Shown here: positions 7,988 through 38,899 of the stretch, one piece after another | Position numbering within the stretch: the stretch's first letter is position 1 | Layout: every line of letters starts with the position of its first letter | Source of the DNA: Zootoca vivipara | Lineage: Eukaryota | Direction: 5' to 3' | NCBI RefSeq assembly: GCF_963506605.1 | Contig: NC_083285.1 | Coordinates: 70,990,001 to 71,054,000, forward strand | Length of the DNA stretch: 64,000 nucleotides | The notes under the pieces: model-generated | What the model was told of the DNA's origin: nothing | Databases searched by the model: none | What the model saw: only the letters and a program-made list of their open reading frames with translations | Translations under genes and position numbers: made by a program

Positions 7988-9973
7988 TTAAAATGATCTC
8001 TCCCCTGTGTGAGTCAGTTGATGTCTTCTGAGGTGTCCACTCTGACTGAAGCTCTTTCCGCACTCCATACATTCATAGGGTTTTTCACTGGAGTGAGTCT
8101 GCTGGTGTAATTTAAGGTCTCCGTTCTGACTGAAGTTATTTCCGCACTCCAAGCATTTAAATGGTTTCTCCTCTATATGAGTCCATTGATGTTTTCTAAG
8201 GTATCCATTATCACTAAAGCTCTTTCCGCACTCAATACATTTAAATGGTTTCTCCCCTGTGTGCGTCCGTTGATGTTTTCTAAGGCTTGTATTATGACTG
8301 AAGCTCTTTCCGCACTCCATACATTTAAATGGTTTCTCCCCTGTGTGAGTCCGTTGGTGTATATTGAAGTGTCCACTCTGAGTGAAGCTCTTTCCGCACT
8401 CCATACATTGAAATGGTTTCTCCTCTTTGTGACTCTGTTGATGGATTCTAAGAGTTGCACTGAAACGGAAGCTCTTTCCGCACTCCATACATTTAAATGG
8501 CTTCTCCCCTGTGTGAATCCGCTGGTGAATTTTAAGGTTCACATTCTGACTGAAGTGCTTTCCGCACTCAATGCATTTAAATGGTTTCTCCCCTGTGTGA
8601 GTCTGTTGATGTATATTGAGTTGTCCACTCTGACTGAAGCTTTTCCCACACTCCATACATTTAAACGGTTTCTCCCCTGTGTGAGTCCGTTGATGTTGTC
8701 TAAGGTTTGCATTATCACGAAAGCTCCTTCCGCACTCCATACATATAAATGGTTTCTCCCCCGTATGAGTCCGTTGATGTATATTGAAGTGTCCACTCTG
8801 TCTGAAGCTTTTTCCGCACTCCATACATTTAAATGGTTTCTCCCCTGTGTGAGTCTGTTGATGGCTTCTAAGGGTTGCATTGAAACAGAAGCTCTTTCCG
8901 CATTCCATACATTTAAATGGTTTCTCCTCTGTATGAGTATATTGATGACTGATAAGATTTGCATTGCAAGTGAAGCTCTTTCCACACTCCATACATTTAT
9001 ATGGTTTCTCCTCTCTGTGAGTCCATTGATGTATTCTAAGGGTTGAATTGAAACTGAAGCTCTTTCCGCATTCCATACATTTATATGGTTTCTCTCCGGT
9101 GTGAGTCCGTTGATGTCTTCTAAGGGTTCCACTCCGACTGAAGCTCTTTCCACACTCCATACATTTATATTTTTTCTTCCCTGTGTGAGTCTGTTGATGT
9201 GCTGTAAGACTCGCTTTGAAACTGAAGCTCTTTCCACACTCCATACATTTAAATGGTTTCTCCTCTGGGTGAGTCCCTTGATGTTTTTTAAGGTATCCAT
9301 TATCACTAAAGCTCTTTCCGCATTCCATGCATTTAAATGGTTTTTCCCCTGTGTGAGTCCGTTGGTGTTTTCTAAGGCTTCCATTACAACTAAAGCTCTT
9401 TCCGCACTCCATACACTTACATGGTTTTTCCCCTGAATGAGTCCGTTGATGTTTTCTAAGGTTTCCATTATCACGAAAGCTCTTTCCGCACTCCATACAT
9501 TTATATGGTTTTTCACCCGTGTGAGTCAGGTGATGTGAACTTAAGTGTCCACTCTGACTGAAGCTCTTTCCACACTCCATGCATTTAAATGGTTTCTCCC
9601 CTGTGTGAGTCCGTTGATGTATTCTGAGGTATCCATTATCACTAAAGCTCTTTCCGCATTCCATACATTTATATGGTTTCTCCCCTGTGTGAGTCCGCTG
9701 ATGTCCTCTAAGGTGTCCACTCTGACTGAAGCTCTTTCCGCACTCCCTGCATTTAAAAGGTTTCTCCCCTGTGTGAATCCGTTGGTGTATATTGAGGGAT
9801 CCGCTCTGACTGAAGTTCTTCCCACAGTCCCTGCATTGGAATCCTTCCTTGCCCATGTGAGTCTGCTGATGTGTTCTAAGTTTTCCACTATCAGTGAAAC
9901 TATTTCCACTCTCCATACCTTTAAATGGTTTCTCCTCTGTTTGAGTTCCTTGATATGAACTATGCGTTCTCAT
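7988..9973 (-). CDS. C2H2 zinc-finger protein, 22 tandem fingers, no KRAB/SCAN seen (661 aa from the first in-frame ATG)
   Basis: Uninterrupted CxxCGKSF...HxxxH arrays with TGEKP linkers. Splice acceptor (pyrimidine tract + cag) puts the exon start at 10077. Decayed fingers lie before the ATG and after the stop (~7680-7990). Confidence 0.88.
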
Positions 9974-10264
9974 TCAGTGAAGCATATTCCACATTTCACA
10001 CATTTTAATTTCTATTCCTAATGAAACAAAAGGTGTCTTTCTCCATCACATTCTTCAGAGTGGGAGGAAAGGAAATCCTGTTCGGGTTTTAAGGAAGAGA
10101 ACAGAGAAATAGAGATCACATCAACCGCCATTAGCACCTTCTGTTATTTCAACATCTCCTACATTCCCCCACCTCCTACCCATGCCCTGAAATTTTTAGG
10201 AAATGCAAATGCAATGATATCAAATGATAGTAATGCAGCAGCAACCTTTCCTAATCCTCAGTCA

Positions 10265-12399: not shown

Positions 12400-13360
12400 T
12401 CCAACGGGGATTCAGACCTCATCATGGGACTGAAACTGCCGTGGTTGAGCTGCTTGATCATCTCCGATGGGCTAGAGGCTGAGGGGGAAGCTGTTTCCTG
12501 GTTCTGCTGGATCTCTCAGCGGCTTTGCAGACCTTTGACCATGGTATCCTTCTGGACCCCCTAGGGGAGCTGGGGGCCCGGTTATGCAGTGGTTCCCCTC
12601 CTTCCTCCTGGGCCATGTCCAGAAAGTGGTGTTGGGGGATGAGTGTTCAGACCCCTGCGCCCGCACTTGTGGGGTGTGTCAGGGCTCCCCCCTCTCCCCC
12701 CTGCTTTTTAATATCTATATGAAGCAACTTGGAGAGATCATCAGGGGGGTTGGCTGGGTGTTCATCAGTATGTGGGTGATACCTAGCTCTATCTCTCTTT
12801 TAAATCAGAGCCAGTGACGGCGGTGAAGGTCCTGTGTGAGTGCCTGGAGGCGGTTGGAGGATGGATGGCGGCTAACAGATTGAGGTTGAACCCTGACAAG
12901 ACAGAAGTACTGTTTGGGGGGGGGGACAGGAGGCGAGCAGGACTCCCTGGTCCTGAATGGGGTAACTATGCCCCTGAAGGACCAGGTGTGCAGCCTGGGG
13001 GTCATTTTGGACTCACAGCTGTCCATGGAGGCACAGGTCTTTTCTGTGTCCAGAGCAGCTGTCTATCAGCTCTATCTGGTACGCAGGCTGAGACCTTACT
13101 AGCCTGCAGACTGTCTCACCAGAGTGGTGCATCCTCTGGTTATCTCCTGTTTGGTCTATTGCCCACCTGCTCTACATGGAGCTCCCTTTGAAGGTGACTA
13201 TGAAACTCCAACGAATCCAGAATGGGGCAGCTTGACTAGTTACTGGGAGAGTTACTGGGAGCAGCCACTGAGACCACATAACACTATTCCTAAAGGATCT
13301 TCCCTGACTCACAGTGCATTTCCGAGAACAATTCAAACTGCTGGTGCTGACCTTTAAAGC
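12400..13360 (+). mobile_element. L2 LINE RT fragment, degenerate
   Basis: Same motifs as the 12..911 copy (QGSPLSPLLFNIYM, NRLRLNPDKTEVL) spread over several frames. Confidence 0.88.
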
Positions 13361-15661: not shown

Positions 15662-16207
15662 TAGGGTTGCCAGGCTGAATAGAGGCCAGGACTTCTGTGC
15701 CTTTAATTGCCCTGCTCTCTTTTGAGTCTGGAAACCTTAGAGAGAAACCAGCAGACCCTGTGTTTAATTTCCAAGCAAAGGGTCTGCAATTGATGCAATT
15801 GATGCTTTTGAATTATGGTGCTGGAGGAGACTCTTGAGAGTCCCATGGACTGCAAGAAGATCAAACCTATCCATTCTGAAGGAAATCAGCCCTGAGTGCC
15901 CACTGGAAGGACAGATCCTGAAGCTGAGGCTCCAATACTTTGGCTACCTCTTGAGAAGAGAAGACTCCCTGGAAAAGACCCTGATGTTGGGAAAGATGGA
16001 GGGCAGAAAGAGAAGAGGACGACAGAGGACGAGATGGTTGGACAGTGTTCTCGAAGCTACGAACATGAGTTTGACCGAAATGCGGGAGGCAGTGCAAGAC
16101 AGGAGTGCCTGGCGTGCTCTGGTCCATGGGGTCACGAAGAGTCGGACACGACTAAACGACTAAACAACAACAACAAGTCCTGTCCTCTATTCAGTCTGGC
16201 AAGCCTA
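15662..16207. mobile_element. hAT-type MITE containing a BovB fragment
   Basis: TIR TAGGGTTGCCAG / CTGGCAAGCCTA; flanks AATGTTTC / AATGTTTA (7/8 TSD). Confidence 0.75.
15795..16176 (+). mobile_element. BovB (RTE) LINE 3' fragment
   Basis: [21 protein letters not shown]...[18 protein letters not shown] followed by a (CAA)n tail. Confidence 0.93.
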
Positions 16208-20469: not shown

Positions 20470-22443
20470 TTTTGTTTTGTTTTTAAACATTTTATTCATT
20501 TTATCACAATAACATACAACAAACAAATAAAACATTACACAACAATACAATGGGGGAAAATACCACATAGGGAAAAAATGGGAAAGAAATTACAAAAAAT
20601 ACAAAAAATTCACACTTCTAAATCTCATATCTTTAACTTTTTAAGTCCCCCTATCTGAGCTTCATTACATATCAACTTTAGCCATTTTTAAATCATAATT
20701 TCAACCACATTGTTTTTCTTATCCTTACATAATTTTCTCTGCTTCAGTGTATCTGAAGAAGTGTGCATGCACACGAAAGCTCATACCAAAATCAAAACTT
20801 AGTTGGTCTTTAAGGTGCTGCTGGAAGAAAAAAAAAATATTTTGTTTCAACTACGTCAGACCAACCTACCTGTAACTATAATTTTCTCTCATTATTTACT
20901 TAATTTCATTACTATGTAAATTCTTAAATACTAACCACTAGTTTTACACCTGCAGCGTATAACAACTTCCAAATATTTTCCAAATTATCAAATATTGCAA
21001 TATTTTTTAAAATAAATTTTAAATTTCTTCCAATCTTCTTCCACCGACTCTTCTCCCTGGTCACGTAGTCTCCCCGTCAGTTCGGCTAGTTCCTTAAAGT
21101 CCATCATCTTCATTTGCCAATCTTCCACTGTTGGTAATTTGTGTGTCTTCCAATTCTTGGCTACCGATATTATTGCTGCTGTTGTGGCGTACAGAAAAAA
21201 GTAACATCTTTTTTTGGGATTTCCTCCCCTACTATACCAAGTAAAAAGGCTTCTGGTTTCTTAATAAATGTGTTTTTCAACACCTTTTTCAATTCATTAT
21301 AAATCTTTCCCCAGAAGTCTCTTACTTTGGGGCATTTCCACCACCTATGGTAAAAGGTTCCTTCCACATCTTTACATTTCTAGCATTTATTATCATGTGT
21401 ATGATAAATTTTAGCTAACTTAACCCGTGTTAAATACCATCTATACATCATTTTCATCATATTCTCTCTCAAAATATTAGATGCTGTAAACTTGATACCC
21501 TTTTCCCACATCTTCTCCCAATCCTCCAACATAATATTGTGCCCCACATCTTTAGCCCAATCAGTCATTACAGATTTCACCTGTTCATCTTTCGTATGCC
21601 ACTCCAGTAATAAATTGTACATCTTAGAAAGATTTTTTTAGTTTTTGGCTCTAACAATTCCATTTCCAGTTTGGATTTCTCTGATTGAAAACTTATATTT
21701 TTCTTATCCATTTTAAGCACTTCATTTATCTGATAATATTGAAACCAATCATCCACATTATCTTTCAACTGTTCATAAGATCTTAACTTAAATTGATCTC
21801 CTGCTTCCATCAATATATCTTTATACTTCAGCCCCTTGGTTTCCATATTCAACCTTTTATGAGTCTTAGCTTCCAATGGTGGAATCCAGCTGGGTGTTAT
21901 CCTTTATAACAAATCCTTATATCTAATCCAAACATTATATAATGATTTTTTAATTATCTGATTTTAAAAACCTTTATGGACCTTAATCTTGTGTTACTGA
22001 AGATATGCTTGCCAACCAAATACATTGTCAAAGCCTTCCAGATCTAACACATCAGTATTTTCCAACAAAAACCAATCTTTCAACCAGCAAAAGGCTGCAG
22101 CTTCAAAATATATCTTTAAATCTGGCAGGGAGAATCCCCCTCTCTCCTTCAAGTCCGTTAATAACTTAAACTTAATTCTGGGTTTCCCCCCCTGCCAGAT
22201 AAATTTAGACAAGACCTTTTGCCGTTCCTTAAAACAATTCATCTTGTCAATAATAGGAAGTGCTTGAAATAAAAATAACATTTTTGGCAATACATTCATC
22301 TTCGCAGCTGAAATTCGGCCCAACATAGATAACTTTAGATTCATCCAGATAATCCAAATCTCTCTTAATTTCATTCAATAACTTATCATAATTATCTTTA
22401 TACAAATTTAAATTTTTTGCAGTCATATTCACACCCAGATACT
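20470..22443 (-). mobile_element. L1 LINE ORF2 3' half, degenerate
   Basis: KYLGVNMT, GRISAAKMNVLPKMLFLFQ, GGFSLPDLKIYFEAA, YRWYLT, CPKVRDFW; A-rich tail toward 20470. Confidence 0.9.
20741..20877 (+). mobile_element. 137-bp Penelope pLTR mini-insertion with intact hammerhead ribozyme (20749-20786)
   Basis: 12-bp TSD ATAATTTTCTCT (20729-20740 / 20878-20889); CTGAAGA...GAAA-GC-TC core. Confidence 0.85.
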
Positions 22444-22929
22444 TCACCGAGATGGCTTTGAAAGAGGACGAGGCCAGTTGGTGGAGGAGGAGAGGGCGAT
22501 GCGGGGCTCTTCTGCTCTGTCTCCGCCGTCGGAGGCTGCAAGGCTTTGGAGTCCCAGTTGCGGGGAGACCTTTGCTGATGAAGCCAGGAAAAGTCTTTGC
22601 TGCCTTGCCTTCTGCTGTTTGGCCTCTTTTACCATGCGAACTTGACCAGATAGGACATACCTGATCTCTTTAAGGTCTGGCCACGCGTTCAGAAACCGTT
22701 TATTCCGTTTCGTAACCCAAGATTTCTGCCTGTGTTTTCTTGCTGCTGTATGGAGAAATGCATGAATCTGAACTTGGAAAGTTTGTAAGTAAAAACCACC
22801 TTCATTTACCAAAGTATGTGGTCTGTTCTATGCCAGAGCCCAGAGGGGTAGAAAGGGGAAGCTCTGGTAGCAAAATGATGTTGAAAAATGTCTCATAGCC
22901 CATATCCTGGTGCTTCATTCCTTTGCATG

Positions 22930-24410
22930 TTTTGTATTTTTTTTCAGATTTATTTAATTTTTGATATAGAAATTTACACTCACACCACGACATGTTATAT
23001 AACGAAACACAGGATTCCCATGAAATCCCCTGCGCTTCCCTCCTCCCCTTTGTAGGCCTTATTGTTAAACTTTTCCTACTGTATCTTTTGCAATAATTCA
23101 GAATTTTTGTATCTCTATTATATCCATAGGTCTCGTTACATTACAAGTGTTATTGCAATCACACTGTTTACAATGGTTTTTTAAGATAAGTTATAATTTC
23201 CCCCCTTTCCTTATTAAAATTTGGGTCTTCTTGATTTCTTATTTTTCCGGTCATTTTTGCCATTTCATCATAGTCCACCAACTTTTCTGCCATTCTTCTC
23301 TGGAAGGGCCTTTGGCTTCTTTCCATCTCTGGGCAAATAGCATCCGCACCGCTGTCGTCACATCCATAAACAATAGTTTCTGTTCCCTTGGAATTTTAGC
23401 ACCTATAATTCCTAAAATAAAAACTTCTGGCTTTTAAAATAAAAGTTATTTTAAACATTTCCCAGAATGCTTTTGTTACCTTGCCTGTCCACCACATATG
23501 ATAAAAAGGGCCTTCTTTTTCCTTACACTTCCAACAGATATTTGTAGCTGTCTTAAACATCTTTGCTATCTTACTGGGAGTTAGATACCAATGGTACACC
23601 ATTATCATATATTTTTCTTTCAACATACAACATGCTGTAAATTTCAGATCATCTTTACATAACGTCTCCCATGATGAAATCTGTACATTGTACCCAAAAT
23701 CTTTCGCCCATTGTTTCATTACAGATTTAACTTCTTCAGCTTTTGTATACCATTCTAAAATTAGTTTGGACATTTTAGAAAGTAATTTTTAAATTATTCT
23801 CTAACAATTCTTTTTCAAACCTTGAGATTTCATTACTAAATCCATTCTTTTTATCCATCTTAAATATACCATCTAGTTGGTGATATTGTAACCAATCAGT
23901 TAATAAATTTCTTATTAAAAAAATTCCTTCCGGCAGCACCTTAAAGACCAACTAAGTTTTTTATTTTGGTATGAGCTTTCGTGTGCATGCACACGAAAGC
24001 TCATACCAAAATAAAAAACTTAGTTGGTCTTGAAGGTGCTGCTGGAAGGAATTTTTTTATTTTGTTTCGACTACGTCAGACCAACACGGCTACCTACCTG
24101 TAACTAAATTTCTTATGTCCTCAAAATTTTGCAATTTCAATTGTGGTTCTACTTCCGTTAACAGCTCTTTATATGTTGCCCAATCGTTTCTCGTATTTAA
24201 TTTTTTCAAGGATATCGCTTCTAGTGGGGAAAGCCACCAGGGTGTTTTCTGTTCTAATAAATTTATATATTTTTATATTTCAAGATGATTCAAGAAACCT
24301 TTATGTTCTTCTGCCTTCTCATACCATAAATATGCGTGCCAACTAAACCTGTTATCATGACCCTCCAGGTCTAGAATATCCATATTTGTTAATGTTATCC
24401 AATGCTTTGT
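22930..24410 (-). mobile_element. L1 LINE ORF2 3' fragment
   Basis: ORF 23396..23773 has YHWYLTPSKIAKM...CWKCKEKEGPFYHMWW. Confidence 0.88.
23916..24104. mobile_element. Penelope pLTR mini-insertion as a head-to-head palindrome
   Basis: 12-bp TSD TAAATTTCTTAT (23904-23915 / 24105-24116); ~70-bp near-perfect inverted arms centred at 23987/23988. Confidence 0.88.
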
Positions 24411-24689: not shown

Positions 24690-27600
24690 ATGGGTTCCTT
24701 CATCTCCCTTGGAGTCTTCCTGAGAGCACAGATAGATGAGGAAGACTCAGCTGGCCCTGAAGGAGGAAGAGGCCATGCCGTCAGAACTGGGAGCAGTGGG
24801 GGATTCTGGGAAAACGCTGTGCAGAAGATCCTGGGTGAGGGGGACACTCTCCGCTCAGATGTGCAGAGCCAGCAGTTCCGGCAGTTCTGCTGCCAGGAGG
24901 CCAAAGGACCTCGAGAAGTTTGCAGCCGACTCTACAACCTTTGCCGGCAATGGCTGAAGCCAGAAAGGCACACGAAAGCTGAGATGCTGGACCTGGTGAT
25001 CTTGGAGCAGTTCCTGGCTGCCCTTCCACCGGAGATGGAGAGCTGGGTGAGGGAATGTGGAGCCGAGACCAGTTCCCAGGCGGTGGCCCTGGCCGAAGGT
25101 TTCCTCCTGAGTCAGGCAGAGGAGAGAAAGCAGGTGAGAGAGACTTTCCTCTGGCTCAGAACATGAGGGAGAGTCTCCCTAAATTTTCTACTAATGGCCC
25201 ATTCCTTTTTGGAAAGCACCCAAGGAATGAGATTGAATAACCCTCAGGTTTTCGCCTCTGCCATTGCTAATCTTTCTCCCCATTTTCTGTTTTGAATCCT
25301 TGTTGCTATTTCAGAGACAGGATCTGTTTGCAGAAATGGGTCTGGATTCCTTTAGGACTGAAAGGACTCTGTTGGACACCAGAGAGAAGCCGCTGGGTAA
25401 GGAGGAATAAGATTTTTCTCTGTTTGGTTACATTCTGTGGATTTCGAAACTGACACAAGGATTATTTTTATCTTTTGGGGGAATATGGTCCAAGAGCCCC
25501 CAAGGAGGGAAGATATATTTTTAACACAACTAAAATATGTTGTTATTGTTTAGTTGTTTAGTCGTGTCCGACTCTTCGTGACCCCATAGACCAGAGCACG
25601 CCAGGCACTCCTGTCTTCCACTGCCTCCCGCAGTTTGGTCAAACTCATGTTCGTAGCTTCGAGAACACTGTCCAACCATCTCGTCCTCTGACGTCCCCTT
25701 CTCCTAGTGCCCTCAATCTTTCCCAACATCAGGGTCTTTTCCAGGGAGTCTTCTCTTCTCATGAGGTGGCCAAAGTATTGGAGCCTCAGCTTCACGATCT
25801 GTCCTTCCAGTGAGCACTCAGGGCTGATTTCCTTCAGAATGGATAGGTTTGATCTTCTTGCAGTCCATGGGACTCTCAAGAGTCTCCTCCAGCACCATAA
25901 TTCAAAAGCATCAATTCTTCGGCGATCAGCCTTCTTTATGGTCCAGCTCTCACTTCCATACATCACTACTGGGAAAACCATAGCTTTAACTATACGGACC
26001 TTTGTCGGCGAGGTGATGTCTCTGCTTTTTAAGATGCTGTCTAGGTTTGTCATTGCTTTTCTCCCAAGAAGCAGGCGTCCTTTAATTTCGTGACTGCTGT
26101 CACCATCTGCAGTGATCAAGGAGCCCAAGAAAGTAAAATCTCTCACTGCCTCCATTTCTTCCCCTTCTATTTGCCAGGAGGTGATGGGACCAGTGGCCAT
26201 GATCTTGGTTTTTTTGATGTTGAGCTTCAGACCATATTTTGCGCTCTCCTCTTCACCCTCATTAAAAGGTTCTGTAATTCCTCCTCACTTTCTGCCATCA
26301 AGGTTGTGTCATCTGCATATCTGAGCTTGTTGATATTTCTTCCGGCAATCTTAATTCCGGCTTGGGATTCATCTAGTCCAGCCTTTCGCATGATGAATTC
26401 TGCATATAAGTTAAATAAGCAGGGAGACAAATATACAACCTTGTCGTACTCCTTTCCCAATTTAACTAAAATATGAAATGGGTGCAAATGTCATAATCCA
26501 TTCAGCAGGCAAGACTTTTTCAAAGGCCCATTTGTAGATATGTAGTGTTTCACCTCTGAGAAAAGCATCTACTCCTGGCTTCCCACTTACCTCTGTCTCT
26601 TGCAGGTGACAGGATTATGTCAGCAAGATCTCCTCTTCCATCTATTCATGGTGGTGAAGGAGAAGCAACGGCTGCGGAACCAGATGGGGTAGGGGAAAAG
26701 AGCATTGGGGGGAAGGAGGCAGAGGGGAGGGGCAGCCAGGGTCCCTCCAGACCCAAGGAACAAAGGCTGAAAATACTATTTTAGAAGACTTACTGTGTGC
26801 TGAGAATAAGGAACAGCCATCTCACCTTAACTCGCCTTCTGAATGTTGCTAATATGATTCACCAGTCGTTTGCAGTTTTATTTCTAGATTTACTGAATGC
26901 TAAGACAGGCGTCTGAGCAGTTTACACACCATACAAAAGTGTGTGGGAATGTTCAGGGTGGCAGGAGAGTATATATTGTTTATTCATATCCTTCCTAACT
27001 TGCGCTAGCAAGCAGAGTGCATTCCCTCTTTACACAGCAGAAAATTAGTTGCAAACCCGTGTGAGTTTCTTAAGACAATACGCAATTTAATCTGGCTTGT
27101 CCAGATTGAAATGTGTTCTAATATTTTCCTGGTAAGACCCCTTGAATCCCTCCTAAAAGAATAAAGACACCACAGTCTTATTCATAAGCAATAAAAAGAA
27201 AGTTTACTGACAATCAGGCAGAGCACAGTGTGATCCCTGAAGGCAGGCTTAAGGCTGAAAGTTGCAAATGTATAAAAACAGGTTTACCTCGTAAGGGAGA
27301 TGACCTGGGGGACTGCTTGGCTGGCAGCCAGCAGGTCAGTCCAGGAAGTTTGCAGGATGAAAGGAAGATGAAAAAGAGAGAGAGTGGCTGCATGACTTGG
27401 CCTTTTACCAGGTCTGGAAAAGTCACACTCACCCACTAGTCACATGCAAAAGGAAGGATGCTCCAGGCCAGGAGGAACAGGAAGTTCAACTGACTGGACC
27501 AAACATCCCCAACATCCCCTTGCATGTCCACTCTAGGAAAACAAGGAATGTTGTACTTGACTGCTCCCGGTGGATTACATCCCACAAAGTGGCCAGGATT

Positions 27601-30530
27601 CAGCTAACCAGCCCCAAGAGTTACGGAATGGGGCTTTCTCCCCAATCTCCTCCCCCTTCCTGTGCCCCCATGTTTCTCTTAAAGTTGACTTCAGGGTATC
27701 AGGTTCTTCCAAAACAGCACACAGGGAAAGGAGAGCAGGAATCCTTCCGTCTGGTAAGCGGGAATGCTGGCGCAGACAGAGTGATTTCAGGAACACATTG
27801 TGGAGTCCTCCCATTTATGTCCAGCATTAAAATGCACAATAAAAGAATTCCATTAAGATGTTTAAAGAAACACTCACAATTAAAATGTGCAGCAAAACGA
27901 TCCCATTAAAACAACACAGCAGAAAGCAACAGAGCAATGTATAGTAGATCATCTTCATTCTGACTGAGAGGAGGGCCTTTCTCTTTCTCTCTTAGGGTCC
28001 CGTGTGCTTTGAAGATGTCACTGTTCATTTCACAGACGAGGAGTGGGCGTTGCTGGATCTTGACCAGAGAGCTCTGCATAAGGAAGTCATGGAGGAGAAT
28101 CGTGGGATCGTGGCCTCTCTCAGTAAGGCTCCTTTGTGGATGATAATCTCTGTTTGGAAATTCCACACATATCTCTCTGTGATAAGCTTCCCTGATTTTG
28201 ATGGAACTCAACAGGGCCACTTGCAGCATCTGGGGTGCAATGCTAACACCTCCACAACTCACCTTCCATGGGGGGCTATTGCTTATTTTGTCTGTTAATA
28301 TCGTTCCTCCTGTTGTTTCCTGTTATTTCCTTTTAGACACTTATCAGGCTGGTCTGAACTGCTTTTTTTCTTTTCTTTTTAAAAATATATTTATTAAAGA
28401 TTTTCCACACATGCAAAAATACAAAACACAATAAACGTATACAAAAAATACATAATACAAAAAACCCAAAAACACACAAAAAGAAAAAATTGCAAAAACT
28501 AAAACTTCTTATTTATAAACCTTATTTCTAATCTAGTGACTTCCTCTCCCTCCTCCTGCTGCGCTTCGTTACATTTCATATTTAGTAAATTCTAAATCTA
28601 GTACAAATTCTAAATTATCATCCATATTACCATATTATAATTATTATTTCTTATCTTTTAAACACTCAGTCTATATCTTTCATCTTAATTCTAATATCCC
28701 AATCTTCTAAAACTACTTATTTTCAAACCCTTATATAGTCTACAACATCCTTATGTCTCCCTCACTACCATTAAATCAATCTATTACATGCTTATTTTTC
28801 AAATAATTTCTAAATTTCTTCCAATCTTCTTCCGCTGCTTCTTCGCTCTGGTCCCGAAGTCTCCCCGTCAACTCAGACAGTTCCATAAATTCTATCAATT
28901 TCTTCTGCCATTCATCCACAGTTGGTAATTCTTCATTCTTCCAATTCTTTGCCAATAGGATTCTTGCAGCTGTTGTGGCATACAAAAAGAAAACAACATA
29001 TTTCTTGGGGATGTCATCCCCTGTTATCCCAAGTAGAAAGGCCTCTGGTTTCTTAACAAAGGTGCTTTTCAGCACTTTTTTCAATTCATTATAAATCCTT
29101 TCCCAGAAGTCTCTCACTTGGGGACATGAACTCCTTTTTTCTTCTTTGCTTCTGTCTGTTTTTGATTGACTAAAGAGATGACAGCTATTGGAGGTGGAGC
29201 AGATTCCATGATTGGGCTAATCAATACCTATCCCAGGAGAGAGACAGGCTATTTGAATCTCAGGTTCTCATAGGTATTTCTGTTAATGCTAGTAATCAAA
29301 GGCTGTGAACCCTGGAATAAGATTTCCCATCTAAGTCCCTGTATCACAAGTGTTAATGAGTATTGCTCCATAATTGGGAACTCCCATTTCTTCCTGAGAC
29401 TCTAATCCATCTTTTTCTTCATTTCAGGTGGTGATGAATGGGAAATTAAGAAGGGAGACCATGACATAATTCACACACTGGAGAAGCCGTATCAATATTT
29501 GGAGCATGGAGAGAGCTTCAGCCAGAGCTCCCGTTCCTCTTCCCATCAAAGAAATCCCATTGGGAACAAACCTTATCAGTGCTTGGAATGTGGAAAGAGC
29601 TTCAGTCGGAGGGAAAGTCTCACTTCCCATCAGAGACTTCATACGGGAGAAAAACCTTATCACTGCTTGGAATGTGGAAAGAGATTCATTCGGAAGAGAA
29701 GTCTCAGTTCTCATCAAACCATTCATACAGGAAAGAAACCCTATCAGTGCTTGGAATGTGGGAAGTGTTTTAATATACACACAAACGTCCGTCGACATCA
29801 GATAATTCACAGTGGGGAGAAACCGTATCAGTGCTTGGAATGTGGAAAGAGCTTTAATAAGAGCTCCAATCTCACTTCCCATCAAAGTATTCATACAGGA
29901 GAGAAACCTTACAAGTGCTTGGAATGCGGAAAGAGCTTTGGTCGGAACTCCCATCTCACTTCCCATCAAAGAATTCATAGAGAGGAGAAACCCTATCAGT
30001 GCTTGGAATGTGGAAAGAGCTTCCCTTGGAAGGAAAGTCTCACGTACCATCAAAGAATTCATACAGGGGAGAAACCCTACCAGTGTATGGAATGTGGGAA
30101 GACCTTTACTACAAGTGCAAACATCCGTCGACATCAAAGTATTCACAGTGGAGAGAAACCATTTCAGTGCCAAGAGTGTGGAAAGGGCTTTAGTAGGAAG
30201 GAAAGTCTCGCTTCCCATCAAAGCATTCATTCAGGGCAGAAACCCTACCAGTGCTTGGAATGCGGAAAGAGCTTCAGTCGGAACTCCCATCTCACTTCCC
30301 ATCAAAGCATTCATACAGGGGAGAAACCATATCAGTGCCTGGAATGTGGAAACAGCTTCAGCAGGAGAGGCAATCTCGCTACCCATCAAAAAATTCACAG
30401 CAGGGAGAATAATAGAATTATAGAATTGCTGAGTTCAAAGGGACCCCATGAGTCATCTAGTCCAACCCCTTGCAATGCAGGAATCTCAGCTAAAGCATCC
30501 CTGACAGACGACCAGACGACCTCTGCTTAA
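24690..30530 (+). CDS. SCAN-KRAB-C2H2 zinc-finger protein (ZKSCAN-type), 10 intact fingers, 612 aa
   Basis: Exons 24690-25133 (SCAN: [37 protein letters not shown]), 25315-25396, 26606-26688, 27996-28122 (KRAB-A: [19 protein letters not shown]), 29428-30530 (fingers). All introns GT-AG, phases 0,1,0,1 consistent, total 1839 nt. Confidence 0.9.
25540..26462 (-). mobile_element. BovB (RTE) LINE 3' fragment in ZNF intron 2
   Basis: [17 protein letters not shown] and ORF 25550..26200 ([42 protein letters not shown]). Confidence 0.95.
26942..27586 (-). mobile_element. Solo LTR, 645 bp
   Basis: TGTGGG...CCCACA termini; 5-bp TSD AAGTG (26937-26941 / 27587-27591). Confidence 0.88.
28365..29127 (-). 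mobile_element. L1 3' fragment in ZNF intron 4
   Basis: ORF 28776..29117 ([16 protein letters not shown]...[15 protein letters not shown]) plus 3'UTR. Confidence 0.88.
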
Positions 30531-30600
30531 GAACCTCCAAGGAAGGAGAGTCCACCACCTCCTGAGGGAGTCTGTTCCTCTGTCAAAGAGCTCTTGCCTA
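30408..30600 (-). mobile_element. CR1-derived 3' fragment overlapping the ZNF C-terminus and stop
   Basis: Degenerate ATAGAAT tail followed by ...TCTAGTCCAACCCC...CTCTGCTTAAGAACCTCCAAGGAAGGAGAGTCCACCAC, homologous to 3750-3900. Confidence 0.75.
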
Positions 30601-31348
30601 GTGCAGAATTTCAGTCCATGTGTTGAGTGGTACTCTGAGGTCCAAGCACAGTAGCGGGTGGATGGTAGCAGGTCAACGCTTTATTGAACAGGGGCTACCC
30701 GGCTTAAGGCAGGCAGTAGCTGACCAGTGAGGCACTGAAATCTATCCCACCAACAAAGGCAACCTGTAGCTCTCGTATCTTATGCCAGTCAGGTTGAGCT
30801 TTTTTTGTTACCAATGGTAACAGGTTTTCAGGTGGAAGATACCAATGAAGCACTTTCTGATATTACACAGTACAGAAGTGTTCTAGGCAAACTAAACTTC
30901 ATTGCCAGATGTTCAAGACCCGATATTGCAGTCAGCACTAATCTACTTAGCAGACACCCTTACAATCCTACAGTTAAGGATTGGAAAGCACTGAAGCGCA
31001 TAGCACGTTACCTGAAAGGTACTATGCACTACAGACTAAGATACATTGATCAAAAGTCTGGAGGTCTTGAAATATTTGCAGATGCAGGTTTTGGAAGTGA
31101 CACCACAGATGGTAAACGCACATCTGGAGTTTGCTACATGTACAACCAGAGTCTGTTTGACTGGTCGTGCAAGAAGCAAACAGTGAGCCTAAGTTATTGT
31201 GAAGCTGAACTCAATGCTCTGTCATATTCACTTATGGATTGCGAATGGTTGTTGCAATTGTGTAAAGACATGAGAATTCATGTAGAGTGTCCTATACAGG
31301 TTTATCAGGACAACAAAGCATGTTTGGCTTTGCTAACTTCTGAAGAGA

Positions 31349-31568
31349 AGAAGAAGAAGAGTTTGGATTTGATATCCCGCTTTATCACTACCCGAAGGAG
31401 TCTCAAAGCGGCTAACAATCTCCTTTCCCCTCCTCCCCCACAACAGACACCCTGTGAGGTGGGTGGGGCTGAGAGACTTCAGAGAAGTGTGACTAGCCCA
31501 AGGTCACCCAGCAGCTGCATGTGCAGGAGCGGAGTCTACCGCTCTTAACCACTACACCACACTGGCTC
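31349..31568 (-). mobile_element. tRNA-derived squamate SINE
   Basis: Minus strand starts GAGCCAGTGTGGTGTAGTGGTTAAGAG (A-box); (TTC)n tail; imperfect TSD CTTCTGA(A)GAG. Confidence 0.8.
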
Positions 31569-31739
31569 TTCTGAGAGTTGTAAGCAAAGAACAAAGCACT
31601 TGCAGTTAAAATTACGACACACAAGGACTTCCAGTCTACCGCCAGTGCTGATCGGTGAGGAATCCGCAAGCTCCGAGGTTCCTGGCGCTGTGAGGGTGGG
31701 GTGGGGGAGCCGCAAGAGCAATGCGGCCCCCCAGAAGAA

Positions 31740-34700
31740 CCCCAAATCATTACCTGGCATGTAGAACACTTGACCTGGTCCCTTCCTAATACACTCTCTT
31801 GCATGACGTAACCTCATCTGCAAGAACCTGGACCTTTGCTTGCAACCCTCTGAAGCTAGCAAATCCAAACAGGAAATGTTGTCCTGATACACCTGTACTG
31901 GACAAGTCACCTTGACTTTGACATCCTGAAACAGTTGCATCAACCACTCGCAATCTGTGAGCGAGAATGAGAGAGTGTTGAGTTCCGCTGCATAGGAACT
32001 CAGACTCACTATTGTTTGCTCCTTGCACATCCAGCCAACCAGACAGTGGTTGTACAAGTAGCAAACGCCAGAAGAGCTTGTGCCACCTGTGGCATCACCT
32101 CCGAAACTTGCATCTGCAAAAATCTCAAGACCTCCAGTCTTTTGACCTGTCAACTTCAGCCTGTAGTGTATAGTGCTTCGAAGATAGCAACCTATGCGCT
32201 GCAGATCTTGCCAATCCTTAACAGTAGGATTGTTTGCATGCCTGCCAAGCAAATCACAGCTTGCAGCAATGTCAGGTCTTGAACATTTTGCAATGAAGCA
32301 TAGCTTGCCTAGAACACATCTATACAAAGTGGTGTCAGAAAATGCTTCTGCGTTATCATCTCCCTGATAACCTGGCACCATAGGTGTGTCTACAGGATTT
32401 CCATCATCCAAATCCATCCTGTTCAACACCTCTGTAATTTCCTGGGTCTGGTGCACCAGAAAACTACCTTCTTTGTCTTTCTCAACTTCCAGAGAAAGAT
32501 GGTTGGAAACTTCACCAAGATCCACCATGGTGTAGTGTTCCTGCAACTTAGCAAGTGTACGCTGGTACAAATCCCTGTGTTTCCAGAAGATAAGCATTTC
32601 AGCATCATAACAAAAGCAATACAGTTTGTGCTCCCCCTCTTCCTTGACAAACACACATGAATCAGCAATAATTTGGTGAAAACCTAGAGAAAGCAACATC
32701 TCTGTTAGTGTTGTATCCCAACACCTGGCACTCTTCTTGAGACCAAACAGGGATTTCTTCAACTTGCAGACCATCCCTTGTGGTACGTGCATTCCTGCAG
32801 GTGGAAGTAAAAACAGATCCTCCTGCAAAATCCCAGTCAAAACATTTGCATCATTAGCATCCAATACAATATGTGATACATGCATTTTCTCCTCCGAAGC
32901 AATCTTGAGCAAAAGCTTTAAGCATTCATACTTCACATCGGGTGCAATAGTCTCAATGTTGTTTTCACCTTGAACCTGTGAAAAACCTGTTGCGACCAGT
33001 TTGGCTGTGTGCCTCACTACCTTGCCATGTTGGTCAGTTTCGGCCTTAAAGACCCACCTGCTGTTTACCAGCTTCATTCCTGGGACCATTTTGACCAGTT
33101 CCCAGGTCGGATTCCTATCTAAGGAATCAATCTCTGTTTTCATGGCAGTTAGCCATGGTTGAGCATCTTTTGAGGTCATTTCCTGAACCTCCTTGAAGCT
33201 TGCAGGTTCAAAAACCTTTTCTGAGCTACTAAGAACAGCATCAGCAGTTTTAGCAAACTCATCAGCAAATCTCTCAGGCTGTTTGCCTGTTGTGGCCCCT
33301 TCAGATTTGCAAACACTCATTTCCTCTTTCTCTGGAGAAAAATGACCAATGGTGAGCAGTGGTTCTCCCAATTCAGTGTCGGACTCAACTGCAGGTCTGA
33401 GTGAGGTTTCAACACCTTCGTAGCCTGCTGTATCACCAGCCACAGCAGTACCACTACCTCCCACTGAATTAGAACCACCCTGATCATCATCACCTGGATG
33501 AATTACATCCTCACTTGGGTGAATCACATCATTTGCATGAACCAGGAAAATTCCCCCACCTTCCTCCCACTTGGGATTGGTAGCACCACCTAGGTGAACC
33601 AGGGAAATTTCCTCCTTTACCACCCCCTTGGGATTGACATCACCATCTGGGTGAACCATGGAAATACCTTCCTTTTGCATCTTCTCTGGATTGGCACTGT
33701 GCAACAAGGGTGTAAGTCCCTGCTGCATTGATTTTCAAGAATTCCCAGCTCCCTCACACAAACCACCCTCCCAAGAACTGTTGGGACGTGAGAGATCCTT
33801 TTGAATTCGCTTCTCATCCAGGAAAGCATCTAGCTCCTGAGAAGTGAATTCACCTTTACTGGGACAGGAGCATTTCACTCCAATGGGATCGGCACTATCA
33901 TCACTCCTGATGTACCCCCCCCCCCTCACACTCCGAGGGATTCAGTTGACCATCTTGGTCATTTGCAACTTCATCCACTGAAAGTGTCATTTGATCAGCT
34001 AGATCAATATGAATCACTTCACAGGGTGTGGAAGTCTGTCTGCTAGAAAGCTTCCCATCATCATAGCTGCCAAGTTATCCCCTTTTTTAAGGGATTTTCC
34101 CTTATGCTGAATAGGCTTCCTCGCGAGAAAAGGGAAAACTTGGCAGCTATGCCCATCATCAGCAATTACATCATTGCAATCAGCAAAAGAATCACAGGGT
34201 TGAACCTTTAAACCCTCTCCATGCTCCTCCTTGGACACCTCCTGCAAACCCAGGTGACCATTGGTGTGATCAAAACCACCTGTAAGAAGAAGCTGATTAG
34301 TGTTAGCATCACAGGCAACTTCAGGCATATCAACCACATTTTCATCAACATAATCAAAAGTAAACACATATTGATTATCAACTCTTGGAGCATTCAGAAA
34401 TTCCTCATCGCCTTTCTTGATGAGACAGCTTCCATTTTCGAAAGAAACTCCATACCCTTCTTCAGACATCTGTGAAATGGAAAGCAAATTAATTTGTGCA
34501 TCTTGCACATACAAAACATCACATAGTGTCAAGTTCAGTCCTCCTATGTGAACATCTCCAGCTCCCTGCACATTTAAAAGTCCTTCACTAGACTTCACGA
34601 AACCATTCTGTGAAGAAAAGCAAGTAAACAAACGTCTGTCACTGCAAACGTGCTTCTGAATTGTGGAACTGACAAAAAACTTGCATTGAACTTTTCGTGC

Positions 34701-36086
34701 CAGCAAAGTCCCGTTTTGCTGCTGTGTGGGCTTCTGCTCCTGGCCGCCCCCCTTCTCCTTGCCTTGTGACACTGTTGTGGGCTGCAATTCTCCCCCCTTC
34801 GGCTGGGTCTTGTCAACAAGCTTCACTTTTGTGGGCATCTCCTTGCCCCTCCTTCGCGACAAAGCTGCACCTGCAGGCTTGTGTTTACATCTCAGCTTCT
34901 GGAAAGACTTTGAAGACTGACCTTGGTTCCCACGGGACTGCACGGCTGTGTGGGATGATGACGCCATCTCCCCCTGAGATCTGCAACTGGCGCCCTCAGC
35001 CATTTCCATTGAAGCATTCTGTGCAGCCACTTGTTCCAGGTCTGACGCGACAGCCAGCTCCTGCTGCAATTCCTAAGTGGCGCCCTCAGCTCTTGCATTC
35101 ACTGGAGACTGCACCCCCACCAGGTCTGACATCACAGCCAGCTCTTCCTGTGGTTTGCAACCGGGTGCCCCAGCACTCCAGCAATCATTTGGGGAATCGC
35201 CATCACAGCTTCCTCCCCCTCCAAGAGCTAGCTTCAATGTTTCCCACATCTTGCAAGCCGAATTGCATGCACCGACGTAAATCAATTGTCCCGGACACAA
35301 ACTTAGGATAATCATTCCTCTAGTGAAAGAATCATCTTCCCTCCAGCTGGTAAGGTCTGGGGAATTAGCCCTCCCCCTCTTTGCGGCAATTGTGTACCAC
35401 ACTCCTGCATCCTGCAGCCTCTTCTGTATACACTTTGCCCATTTCTGATAATTTTCTCCTTGAAGGAAAATTATCTGTTCAGAGCTGTGCAAAAACTCCA
35501 TTTTCCCTGGGAAACTGGGAAAATGCTGCAGCTCTTCTCACTGTCCACTGTCCTCACAGTCATTAATCACTGTGAAAGTATTACTGCCCGCCATAAAACT
35601 TCAGGCTGCGCAGATCAAAGTCTCTTGCCGCGGCAAGTAAAAAGCCTTTCGCTTTTCCACATACCTCCTCTCCTCTTTGTCCGACGTTATCCAGCATCCT
35701 GTAGCTGCATTCTGAACACGCTGCTGCCTTTCTGCTGCCTGGGTCAGAACACCAGCCAGTTCTGCAACCTTCTAGGCAATTAGCCATTCCATTACTGGGC
35801 CCATAACCCTTTGTTGGCAAAACCGCAGAAGACCTGGGCCACCAAGCCCAGGGCAAGCCTCTGCTGGGTGTCTTCTCTCCTGCGGTAGCCAGCTGTAACA
35901 CGATCCAGGCTCCTTGGAGTCTGGACACATTATCTTCAGAGTTCATCTCCAGCGTTAGCGTGGTTTGGCAGCAGCAAGCAGCATCAGAGAAAAGTCAGAG
36001 AAGTTCTTGCATATATACAAGCGTTTATTCTAAAGCATCTCGGAAGCAAGACCAAACGTGTCTGTCTCCATCAATAAATCCTAACA
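31740..36086 (-). mobile_element. Ty1/Copia element B: 5' LTR, PBS, degenerate gag-pol, 3' end missing
   Basis: LTR 35812-36086 (TGTTAGG...CCAACA, contains AATAAA); Copia-type PBS GGTTATGGGCCCAG 35795-35808; gag N-terminus (ENYQKW...MWETLK); RT (TWELV, SRWVFK, AKLVATGFSQ, KLKKSLFGLKKSARCW); RNase H (IFADASFGG, YQDNISC). Confidence 0.9.
34062..34151. mobile_element. 90-bp hAT-type MITE inserted in the Copia B ORF
   Basis: Reverse complement of 2292-2381 with few differences; 8-bp TSD CCCATCAT (34054-34061 / 34152-34159). Confidence 0.93.
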
Positions 36087-38899
36087 GTGGATAGGTGGCG
36101 AAAGAGTGGGAATAGGGTGAGGAGCAACAATGGGTAATTTTCTGATTGATTAAGATGATCCGAAACTGGAACTTTTTATGGAGCTGGTTGATACATCTGG
36201 GAGATCCGGAGTCCAGGGGAAGGGGGATAGAATTAGATAAATGTGGTTAAAGGTTATTATGATAGAAGAAATAGTATTTGAATGTATGGGGGAAAATTTG
36301 GGGTATAAATTGTGAGGCTAAAGGAAGAATTAGAGATGGATGGGAAAATAAATTTAGATTTGGATTAATTAATGAATTAATGGTGAGGATAGTTGATGTT
36401 TTTTCTTTCTTTGTGTAGATTAGAATTGGTTGTGAAATAATGGAAAAAATGTGTTAGAATGATTTAAGATGATAAAGTAAAATTGCTTTATTTAGATTGA
36501 ATAAATGGACCCAGTGTGGGGGGACTCAAGGAAGTCCACAATGTCAAGTTAATGTAATGAATTGATATGTTTTTTCTTTTTCTTTTTTGATTATGTTTTA
36601 TTTTTGCTTTTTGTTTTTGTTTTTATGTTGAAATGTTTGAAAATCAATAAATATTATTTGAAAAATAAAAAAATATAAAAATAAAATTACGACATGCAAG
36701 GGAATCTGTTCAGAACGGACTCGTAACAGTGTCCTATATGCCAGGAGCTGAGATGCCTGCTGATTTGTTGTCCAAGATCGTTCCCAGGGAACGACACTGT
36801 ACCTATGTACAGAAACTGGGACTGTACTAACACACTGCCCAGTGATATATATATATATATATATAGAAAGGGGGAGGAGGTTAGGTTTCTATTCCTCTCA
36901 CTCACGGGAGCGGATGTTTGCTGTATTCTGTTTCCATTTGTTTGTTTTTCTTCGGACTTCTCTCAGCGAGAGGAGACATGTTTTCTTTCGTTCTGCCTTA
37001 CGCTTAATAAAGTAGTTTTTAGTACACAACCTCAGCCTGGATCCGTCTGCGTTTTATCTCTGCTGGACTCTGAATATGCACTCAGTGTCTCCAAGACATG
37101 GGTCATAATAAATCGTCGGGAAAGGGCTGTCGGAACTCCCTAGAGCTGCACGCTGGACGCTGACGGGAGAGATGGGCTGGATTCGTTCCTGCATTATGCC
37201 TGGGGATCGTTCTTGCCCCCGGCTGACCCAACAAATTCAACCATTCCATATGGAAATAGATGTTTACTATAATCTTGTTTTTATTGCATCAGCTCAATGA
37301 TTAATACCCTTTGTGGGAAGAAACGCTGATTGTACCGGAAAAGTGTCCAGGGGTTGACTCATGAGTTGACATTGCTTCTATCAAATACATGAGTGATTGC
37401 AAAGAAAAAGAAAATGAGATTTCTCAGTTTGCTTGTTTAGACTCCTTGTTGTGGAGCGGCTGCCCTTGGTGATATATTCTTGTACAACTTCGCATTTTGC
37501 AAGATTCCTAGCAGGTGCGCCAGAAAGTGGCGCCAGAATCAGGGCCGCCGTTGCCCAGCCCTGCTCGGGGGGGGGGAGAGCAAGCAAGGAGGTGTCTTCC
37601 CAGCTGAGTCAGCTGCTTTTCCCACAGAACATCCGGTCCTGGGTGAAGGACAAGTCTGAGGTTGAGGTGGTCGACCTGGTCCTGAAGCTCCAGGAGAAGC
37701 TGGTAAGCAGGATGCTCCCAAGTGAGTTGTGCCTGATGGGTGGAAGGTGCTCAGATCAGGGCTCTCTTCTCGAGGGAGCAGAGCGGAGCCTGGCTGGCTG
37801 GCTGGCCCCTCCAGACTGTGGCCAGGCCTGTTTCAGCCTTGGGAATCCCCTAAGGAAATCTCAGCCCCAGGTGAGAGCAGAGGAGCCCCAGGTGAGAGCA
37901 GAGGGCAGACGGGGGACCAAAGTGAGACAAACTGCCCCAGGAACACGGTGTGTCCCCCCCACCAGAGTTACTGCCCCTCCCCAACTCCCCCCCCCAATGC
38001 TTTATGGCATTTATTAATTAGCACTCATAAATCCTGTTTTATGAATGGGAAAACTGTAGATATTTAAATAAAATAGTTTATTAATGAATAGAACTCAAGC
38101 CAAAGGTCACAGAATCATACACAGAGTGATTCAAAGCGGTTCTGAGTAACAGTGTCTGAGCGCTTCATGGCTGCAGCCGTAATCCCAGAGTCCTGGGACA
38201 GAACACAAACTCTCAATGGGCAATAATACAATGGGCTGACAATGGAGGGAAGGATCCTTATCAGCCCAGGAAGAAACCCTTGAGCAGGAGACTAAGTGAC
38301 TGGATTGGGGTGAAGGTTATTTGTGACGCCAAAGGGATGTGCTCATGTTTGCCCAAAGGATGACAGATGAGCAGAGGAGAGGGGAGACTTGCCACCCACA
38401 GATCTCTTGGAGACAAGGCAAGGACCTGTGATGCGTTGCAACATTTGGACAGTGCTTTTTGGGAGTGGATCTCTGGGCAAAAGGCAAACTTTGTTGGAGG
38501 CTGCTTCTTCTTTTGCTGTTCCAGAAGTAGGACGCTCGCTGTGACAAAAATAAAGATTGGGCCTCCTAGTCGCCTTGCTTTTCATATACCTGGTTGCATT
38601 TTCTGGCTTTGCTCTGACCGTCACGTGGCCCCCAGGGGATCGTGAGACCCCAGAGCAAGGGGGGGGGGGTCCCGCGACAACAATCTCCTGATTTTCCCAC
38701 GACACTTGCAAGCCCCTGTAGCATGTAGAGCGCACGGCTCATACACGTCATACACGTGATCCTGCTGGCTGCTGGGCTAATCCGGTCACTGACAGAAGTC
38801 CTGAGCAAAATACCCTTACAAAAAAACCAGAGGTGGAGGGACTTGTAATGCAGTTTTGCAGCACTCTGTTCTTGGGAGACCCCGCCTTCCCCTCTTTCG

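What the first reader, a model, noticed from the sequence alone, without database searches (positions are those of the whole stretch)
31607..36694. L1-ended, poly(A)-tailed 5-kb insert whose body is an antisense Copia element, inserted into another Copia
Seen: Copia A RNase H (…KHLQLKLRH|ARESVQNG…) is split by 5062 bp flanked by a perfect 13-bp TSD at TT/AAAA. The insert has a ~115-bp CpG-rich leader, then 4.3 kb of reverse-oriented Copia B (LTR, PBS, gag-pol), then an L1-type 3'UTR and A-tail. Copia B stops within ~20 codons of the position homologous to the break in Copia A. Established: long TSD, A-tail and TT/AAAA are L1 TPRT hallmarks, not integrase ones. Inference: either a chimeric non-autonomous element that moves LTR-retrotransposon cargo with L1 machinery (and would make antisense Copia RNA), or a one-off Copia insertion into an L1 followed by a deletion.
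Basis: partly seen in the sequence, partly recalled or inferred. Interest (0 to 1): 0.7.

Follow-up and report, generated by a model that had tools for sequence, protein, structure and literature searches.

The report
Nested jumping genes plus one deletion
This odd-looking 5-kb insert is a single-copy pile-up: a common 2-kb LINE-1-type parasite sits inside one LTR retrotransposon, a second LTR retrotransposon likely jumped into it backwards, and a deletion likely removed about 1.8 kb afterwards, so it is probably ordinary genome debris and not a new hybrid mobile element.

Summary
The anatomy is real: 13-bp TSD, TT/AAAA site, A-tail, 4.3 kb of reversed Copia B. The chimeric-element reading is not supported. 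Leader and tail are the two ends of one ~2.0-kb non-autonomous L1-type family, normally ~1.33 kb apart, and 0 of 30 sampled copies hold Copia. Copia B is an LTR family with 5-bp TSDs, and its LTR terminus abuts the host precisely, an integrase mark. Both junctions occur once in the 1.44-Gb assembly. The left junction has 2-4 nt of microhomology and no splice signals; ~1.83 kb is missing. Contigs from three other samples show no such junction; two carry the outer insertion junction, and in one a 98%-identical leader runs on into intact family body. Best reading: TPRT insertion, then Copia integration, then deletion. The 'homologous break' is probably coincidence. Private divergence does not separate the two inner layers, and no data confirm the deletion junction independently. 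The scan noted similar 2-kb HAL1-like retroposons elsewhere in this genome. Side lead: Copia B spread although its RT lacks YxDD.

The parts
29406..30530 (+). C2H2 zinc-finger array exon upstream of the nest (context)
   Evidence: 374-aa frame, zf-C2H2 x10
30810..31343 (+). Copia A remnant: end of RT and start of RNase H; 5' part of the element absent
   Evidence: relatives at 88-92% match from 30810 and continue upstream with other sequence
31344..31569 (-). SINE-like high-copy insert in Copia A (tRNA-type head is my reading from recall), 5-7 bp duplication
   Evidence: absent from Copia A relatives; very high contig depth; flanks
31570..31619 (+). Copia A RNase H continued; 31607-31619 is the left TSD copy
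31620..31624 (+). about 5 extra bases between TSD and element 5' end
   Evidence: family copies begin at the equivalent of 31625-31626
31625..31747 (+). 5' end (leader) of the 2-kb non-autonomous L1-type element
   Evidence: 84-89% to 39 other scored places; family starts GACTTCCGGT like lizard clade-1 L1
31744..31747 (.). deletion junction with 2-4 nt microhomology; about 1.33 kb of host body and 506 bp of Copia B (RNase H end, PPT, 3' LTR) missing
   Evidence: unique in the assembly
31744..35811 (-). Copia B internal region: gag, protease, decayed integrase region, RT, RNase H; broken by stops, small deletions and a MITE
   Evidence: Pfam; 89-94% colinear with full-length copy L133; no integrase hit, no YxDD
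34062..34151 (.). 90-bp MITE with 15-bp terminal inverted repeats and 8-bp TSD (hAT-like, label from recall) inside Copia B
   Evidence: sequence; no other scored Copia B copy carries it
35795..35808 (-). primer-binding-site-like motif just inside the LTR (likeness to the copia tRNA-iMet site is recalled)
   Evidence: sequence
35812..36086 (-). Copia B 5' LTR, both termini intact (TG...CA), about 120 bp deleted internally
   Evidence: terminal 11 nt exact in 27 of 29 LTR loci; lengths
36087..36091 (+). presumed surviving copy of Copia B's 5-bp target duplication, inside the host body
   Evidence: host family is continuous here; the partner copy would lie in the deleted part (inferred)
36087..36681 (+). 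3' part of the 2-kb element: purine-rich stretch, T-rich tract, AATAAA, A-tail
   Evidence: 83-92% to family copies; last ~110 nt 69-74% like 3' ends of autonomous L1 loci
36682..36694 (+). right TSD copy
36695..37233 (+). Copia A RNase H end, PPT and 3' LTR (about 36880-37233)

Best explanation
The insert is one copy of a 2-kb non-autonomous L1-type element lying in a Copia A remnant, and it likely gained Copia B later by ordinary integrase insertion and likely lost about 1.8 kb by a microhomology-joined deletion. Shown: the two L1-type ends belong to one family; Copia B ends at an exact LTR terminus; both junctions are single-copy; what is missing is one contiguous stretch (host body plus Copia B's 3' end). 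Inferred: step 1, L1 enzymes reverse-transcribed the 2-kb RNA at TT/AAAA and made the 13-bp TSD; step 2, Copia B cDNA, probably made with enzymes of an autonomous Copia, integrated antisense about 1.45 kb into the element; step 3, a break was repaired by joining at 2-4 shared bases. A MITE and small deletions accumulated too. The closeness of the two RNase H breaks is likely coincidence.
For: Family: 20 of 30 loci from a search with the family's body held both ends, 17 of these 20 with a gap of 1150-1400 bp (median 1326), 10 of 20 with a TSD of 8 bp or more, 0 of 30 with Copia B. None of the 58 leader or tail loci holds Copia B beyond the MITE, and none of 29 Copia B loci holds leader or tail. 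LTR: terminal 11 nt exact in 27 of 29 loci; 14 of 20 solo LTRs have a perfect 5-bp TSD and the other 6 differ at one base; L133 is 4983 bp with a 5-bp TSD. Junction patterns with up to 3 mismatches: 1 match each, controls 0. No GT...AG at the deletion on either strand. Other samples: contigs cross Copia A|leader in X1 (47 and 34 letters on the two sides) and X2 (48 and 26, under the tool's 31-letter bar); depth leaves no room for a leader|Copia B contig in X1, X2 or X5; in X5 a contig 106/108 identical to the leader runs on into family body, while the best paralog fetched is 91%. Copia A has 1.7-2.0% private substitutions against about 0.9-1.0% for the inner layers.
Against: Private substitutions do not separate the host element (6/691) from Copia B (40/4107); a unit insertion would give the same. 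The second copy of the 5-bp TSD cannot be seen. X5 has no contig across Copia A|leader, so its 98% contig is tied to this locus only by identity and by sharing its start and one variant with the X1 and X2 contigs. Contigs show presence, not absence. No read set confirmed the deletion junction. DNA searches scored only 40 of 145-1361 candidates each.
Confidence: 0.8

Rival explanations
1. Same nesting, but the deletion was guided by fold-back of the inverted Copia A and Copia B RT/RNase H arms in single-stranded DNA, which would explain why B ends near the position homologous to A's break.
For: Arms 30810-31343 and 31849-32385 are 75.6% complementary over 540 bp; predicted RNA duplex -580 kcal/mol against about -194 for 8 shuffles. 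The deletion lies wholly between the arms. In yeast ssDNA, 75% inverted repeats and long spacers still drive rearrangements (PMC10164571, section 19 read).
Against: The same paper reports a ~1000-fold drop at 75% identity in normal DNA, and its products are dicentrics. The break is 59 bp past the homologous point, not at it. Copia A's coding remnant is only ~0.75 kb of RT end and RNase H, and a deletion that takes B's 3' LTR tends to end nearby: chance of falling within 60 bp is 3% if uniform over B, 12-24% if within 0.5-1 kb of the LTR. Longest helix 21 bp.
Confidence: 0.08
2. The deletion junction is an assembly error; the animal carries the undeleted nest.
For: No contig bridging the junction in X1, X2, X5; no listed run holds more than 43% of the stretch's words.
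Against: 1.44 Gb in 48 contigs suggests a long-read assembly (inference). The junction is clean, with microhomology. The low word share fits other individuals that lack this Copia B copy: at many listed positions in Copia B all contig depth carries the other letter (only 40 of 178 rows shown).
Confidence: 0.06
3. A chimeric RNA (leader + antisense Copia B + tail) arose elsewhere and was inserted here as a unit by L1 enzymes, SVA-like; the source is lost or unassembled.
For: The whole 5062 bp lies within one TSD; both L1-type ends are kept; no AATAAA or ATTAAA on the + strand between 30401 and 36072; equal private divergence of the inner layers.
Against: No second copy of either junction or of the MITE-bearing Copia B; no splice signals; the same insertion site in X1 and X2 shows no chimeric junction.
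Confidence: 0.04
4. The Copia B segment was copied in at the DNA level (ectopic conversion or templated repair) from another family copy that already held Copia B, one end resolved by homology in the tail and the other by microhomology.
For: Copia B here has several lesions for only about 1% private substitution.
Against: No donor with the LTR|tail junction or the MITE in the assembly.
Confidence: 0.02

Closest known systems
Nested TE insertions trimmed by deletion (maize 'Multi TE SV' and 'Incomplete TE SV' classes; PMC10773942, passages read)
   Same: Sequential insertion of one TE into another, and a deletion that removes one edge of an element with neighbouring TE sequence
   Different: Here in a probable lizard, and the middle layer is a TPRT element, so the outer TSD mimics a unit insertion
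HAL1 and bipartite non-autonomous LINEs (PMC5753468 and PMC5786205, passages read; Bao and Jurka 2010 not held)
   Same: About 2 kb, L1-type 5' motif, T-rich 3' tract, AATAAA, long TSDs, no ORF2, one decayed frame in the body
   Different: ORF1p homology of the body was not detected; many copies end in G-runs
SVA/LAVA composite retrotransposons (PMC3287187, passages read)
   Same: LTR-element sequence between TPRT marks (TSD, A-tail, endonuclease site)
   Different: SVA has thousands of copies with their own TSDs; this composite has one copy and an integrase-type inner end
Ty1/Copia LTR retrotransposons
   Same: TG...CA LTRs, 5-bp TSD, gag-protease-RT(RVT_2)-RNase H order
   Different: Copia B family has no integrase Pfam hit and lacks YxDD in 12 of 12 distinct close sequences, so it is probably non-autonomous

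Membership tests
L1-mediated (TPRT) insertion | 4-20 bp TSD, TTTT/AA-type site, poly(A) tail (as listed in PMC3287187) | tested here: met
   13-bp TSD, TT/AAAA, AATAAA plus A-tail
SVA-like composite mobilised by L1 | several copies of the same composite with different TSDs | tested here: not met
   1 match per junction in 1.44 Gb, up to 3 mismatches; 0 of 30 family loci hold Copia B
SVA-like composite mobilised by L1 | sign of an RNA intermediate at the inner junction (splice signals) | tested here: not met
   no GT...AG on either strand; microhomology instead
SVA-like composite mobilised by L1 | composite transcript exists | tested here: inconclusive
   0 reads laid from about 6% of one RNA run; the tool calls this no test
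HAL1 / bipartite L1 derivative (host element) | L1-type ends | tested here: met
   5' GACTTCCGGT matches the lizard clade-1 consensus in PMC5381506 and GACTTCCGG lies upstream of ORF1 in autonomous locus L274; last ~110 nt 69-74% to 3' ends of 10 of 29 ORF2 loci, a low-complexity match
HAL1 / bipartite L1 derivative (host element) | no ORF2, multi-copy with own TSDs | tested here: met
   copies about 2.0 kb; 10 of 20 with TSD of 8 bp or more; no tblastx match of copy L059 to 8 L1 ORF2 loci
HAL1 / bipartite L1 derivative (host element) | encodes ORF1p | tested here: inconclusive
   hhalign probability 0.06% against 4 ORF1s of this genome; no Pfam or database hit; but Pfam also gave no L1 family for 2 of 2 true ORF1s, so power is low
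Ty1/Copia LTR retrotransposon (Copia B) | LTRs with TG...CA and 5-bp TSD; Copia-type gag and RVT_2 | tested here: met
Ty1/Copia LTR retrotransposon (Copia B) | own integrase and catalytic RT motif (autonomy; YxDD motif recalled) | tested here: not met
   no integrase hit in a sister copy's 1312-aa frame; YxDD in 0 of 12 close and 6 of 8 distant sequences
Integrase insertion of Copia B at this site | both copies of the 5-bp TSD | not testable with these tools
   the 3' LTR side lies in the missing stretch; needs an undeleted allele

The most novel reading that the evidence does not exclude
The composite keeps both L1-type ends and has no + strand poly(A) signal before 36073, so it is transcribed as one 5-kb antisense-Copia RNA that L1 enzymes can move: an SVA-like element caught at birth. 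Read-through from the upstream zinc-finger gene would also fold Copia A onto Copia B and feed small RNAs against Copia.
Probability: 0.05. Interest if true: 0.6.

Novelty: new member of a known kind. Interest (0 to 1): 0.14.

Why it matters
As a locus it matters little: it is a dead nest. It shows how an outer TPRT signature can make a nested insertion plus deletion look like a hybrid mobile element, and that copy number of the inner junctions and the form of the LTR end settle the question. Had the chimera been real, it would show L1 enzymes spreading LTR-element cargo in a reptile. Two side leads look better than the finding: a Copia family that spread recently while lacking RT and integrase motifs yet keeping a 1312-codon frame, and G-run tails on the 2-kb family.

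Tried and rejected
Splicing as the cause of the deletion: rejected, no GT...AG. Autonomous partner of the 2-kb family: not found; Pfam Transposase_22 rang nowhere, controls included, so that search says nothing; 8 L1 ORF2 loci gave no body match. Homologue search of the body frame: 0 of 279 candidates at E<=0.01, lengths 124-398 only. Dating by private substitutions: orders Copia A as older but not the two inner layers. First lay over 7.8 kb was swamped by repeats; only 15 of 115 joints were shown, none an empty-site joint. RNA: no RNA holder listed; 0 reads from 6% of X21, no test. ARAGORN found no tRNA in 30000-38000. 30590-30810 matched none of my fetched loci and stays unassigned. One search read the wrong columns for the RT motif; its counts are void and one search replaces them. 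Literature: the listings (titles and abstract starts only) showed no lizard L1-Copia chimera; this does not show absence from print. No supplements were read. Look-ups of earlier findings by sequence, nearness and words returned nothing.
Full report
Observation. A 13-bp duplication at 31607 and 36682 is the only exact match of 8 nt or more in the two 100-bp boxes searched (chance about 2e-4). It encloses 5062 bp and splits a Copia RNase H that is continuous in 7 of 7 relatives printed. Inside lie a 120-bp GC-rich leader, 4343 bp of reversed Copia B with gag, protease and RVT_2 hits, and a 595-bp tail with AATAAA and an A-rich end. The window is G000:C10:70990001-71054000 in a 1.44-Gb, 48-contig assembly. 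That the host is a lizard is inferred from the L1 motif below and from earlier scan notes.

The L1-type ends are one element. Searches with the two junction regions returned places matching the leader alone, the tail alone or Copia B alone; only the window matched across (40 scored of 287 and of 623 candidates). Leader and tail co-occur in the same loci. Of 30 loci fetched with the family's body, 20 held both ends within the stretch, 17 of these with a gap of 1150-1400 bp (median 1326), 10 with a TSD of 8 bp or more, and none of the 30 held Copia B. The family is about 2.0 kb, begins GACTTCCGGT as lizard clade-1 L1 does (PMC5381506, passages read), and its last ~110 nt resemble the T-rich 3' ends of 10 of 29 L1 ORF2 loci at 69-74%. 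It has no ORF2. Its decayed body frame showed no link to ORF1p, but Pfam also missed two true ORF1s, so HAL1 membership is open. It works like a HAL1 or bipartite L1 derivative (PMC5753468, PMC5786205, passages read). The TSD, TT/AAAA site and A-tail are thus explained by this host alone.

Copia B came by integrase. BLAST matches of the LTR stopped 13 bp short of the tail, which first looked like a ragged end. It is an internal deletion of about 120 bp: the last 11 nt are the family's LTR terminus, exact in 27 of 29 loci. Of 24 LTRs measured, 4 were ends of longer elements; of the 20 solo LTRs 14 have perfect 5-bp TSDs and 6 differ at one base, and full-length L133 (4983 bp) has one too. In the window this terminus meets host sequence that is continuous in family copies. 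A precise outer LTR end is what integrase leaves (established knowledge of LTR elements).

The left junction is a deletion. Against L133, 506 bp of Copia B are missing (396 bp LTR plus 110 bp); against the host family about 1.33 kb. These are adjacent in the nested model, so one event of about 1.83 kb explains both. The two sides share 2-4 bases and there is no GT...AG on either strand, which fits end joining at microhomology (inferred).

Copy number. Patterns across each junction, with up to 3 mismatches, matched once in the whole assembly, controls 0. A 90-bp MITE with an 8-bp TSD inside Copia B was in no other scored copy (40 of 1361 candidates).

Other animals. No listed run held more than 43% of the words. 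I laid 4 of 23 runs on the whole region (swamped by repeats), then 3 contig sets and 1 RNA run on 31572-31812. Contigs cross Copia A|leader in X1 and, below the tool's 31-letter bar, in X2; not in X5. Depth arithmetic leaves no contig across leader|Copia B in any of the three. All three have a contig with 2 differences in 108-110 leader bases, while the best of 63 paralog hits is 91%; in X5 it runs on for 27 letters into family body. I read these as undeleted alleles of this site, which puts the TPRT step before the deletion. Limits: contigs show presence only, 63 pieces were not shown, and the same data leave misassembly of the junction open.

Evidence that does not help my reading. Private substitutions are 1.7-2.0% for Copia A but about 0.9% for the host ends and 1.0% for Copia B, so they do not order the inner layers. 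The second 5-bp TSD copy is lost. There is no + strand AATAAA or ATTAAA from 30401 to 36072, so a read-through antisense RNA is possible; the RNA lay was no test.

The homologous break. B runs 59 bp past the point homologous to A's break. Copia A is only a 3' remnant from 30810, so any insert in its coding part falls in or near RNase H, and a deletion taking B's 3' LTR tends to end there too (3-24% by simple models). The arms are 75.6% complementary over 540 bp. At that level inverted repeats are nearly inert in normal yeast DNA but active in long ssDNA (PMC10164571, abstract and sections 3 and 19 read), so fold-back help stays a minor rival.

Comparison. This is nesting trimmed by deletion, a common class in genome comparisons (PMC10773942, passages read). 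It resembles SVA in having LTR-element sequence inside TPRT marks (PMC3287187, passages read) but fails the multi-copy test. Earlier scan notes describe 2-kb HAL1-like retroposons on other DNA of this genome; I did not test whether they are this family, and a sequence look-up found no look-alike.

Side result. A sister copy with identical LTRs keeps a 1312-aa frame but has no integrase hit; YxDD is absent in 12 of 12 distinct close sequences and present in 6 of 8 distant ones (replacing the faulty). Copia B is therefore likely a non-autonomous family moved in trans.

Verdict. Observation confirmed; chimeric element not supported; ordinary nest plus deletion at 0.8. Interest 0.14.

Noticed in passing
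window 31744-36086; L133, L139 and other Copia B loci: The Copia B family looks non-autonomous yet recent: a sister copy has identical LTRs and a 1312-aa open frame, but no integrase Pfam hit, and YxDD is absent in 12 of 12 distinct close sequences (present in 6 of 8 distant ones). Why the long frame is kept is unexplained.
   Followed up: partly
3' ends of the 2-kb family, L032-L060 and L242-L271: 10 of 32 pattern-matched ends (about 4 of the 32 look like off-target matches) carry a run of 6 or more G where an A-tail is expected, often directly before the TSD; 16 of 32 have A-runs. Cause unknown: templated, slippage or A-to-G change.
   Followed up: partly
window 31625-31747 and 36087-36681; L059, L061, L062, L066: Abundant ~2.0-kb L1-type non-autonomous family (at least 155 matches to its body frame) with a decayed acidic frame of no detected homology; internal deletions and nested inserts are frequent among copies.
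   Followed up: partly
window 30810-31343 with 31849-32385: 540-bp, 75.6% inverted pair downstream of a zinc-finger exon, with no + strand poly(A) signal until 36073; a read-through 3' UTR could fold back.
   Followed up: partly
window 34062-34151 and 2292-2381: 90-bp MITE with 15-bp inverted ends and 8-bp TSD; a 97% copy lies at 2292-2381 and the family is very high-copy.
   Followed up: partly
window 30590-30810: About 220 bp between a SINE and the truncated start of Copia A matched none of my loci; it may be a reversed LTR-like fragment (unverified).
   Followed up: partly
window 15797-16175 and 25538-25916; 121-1021 and 12460-13360: Further inverted pairs: 379 bp at 96%, and about 900 bp at 74-91%.
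   Followed up: no
window 7877-10024, 21200-24400, 28779-29000: A long C2H2 array on the minus strand and several L1 ORF2 fragments; the genome holds many L1s with 1244-1258 aa ORF2.
   Followed up: no
L129-L132 (G000:C13, 39.57-39.79 Mb): Four near-identical truncated Copia B copies with the same flank, suggesting a segmental or tandem duplication.
   Followed up: no
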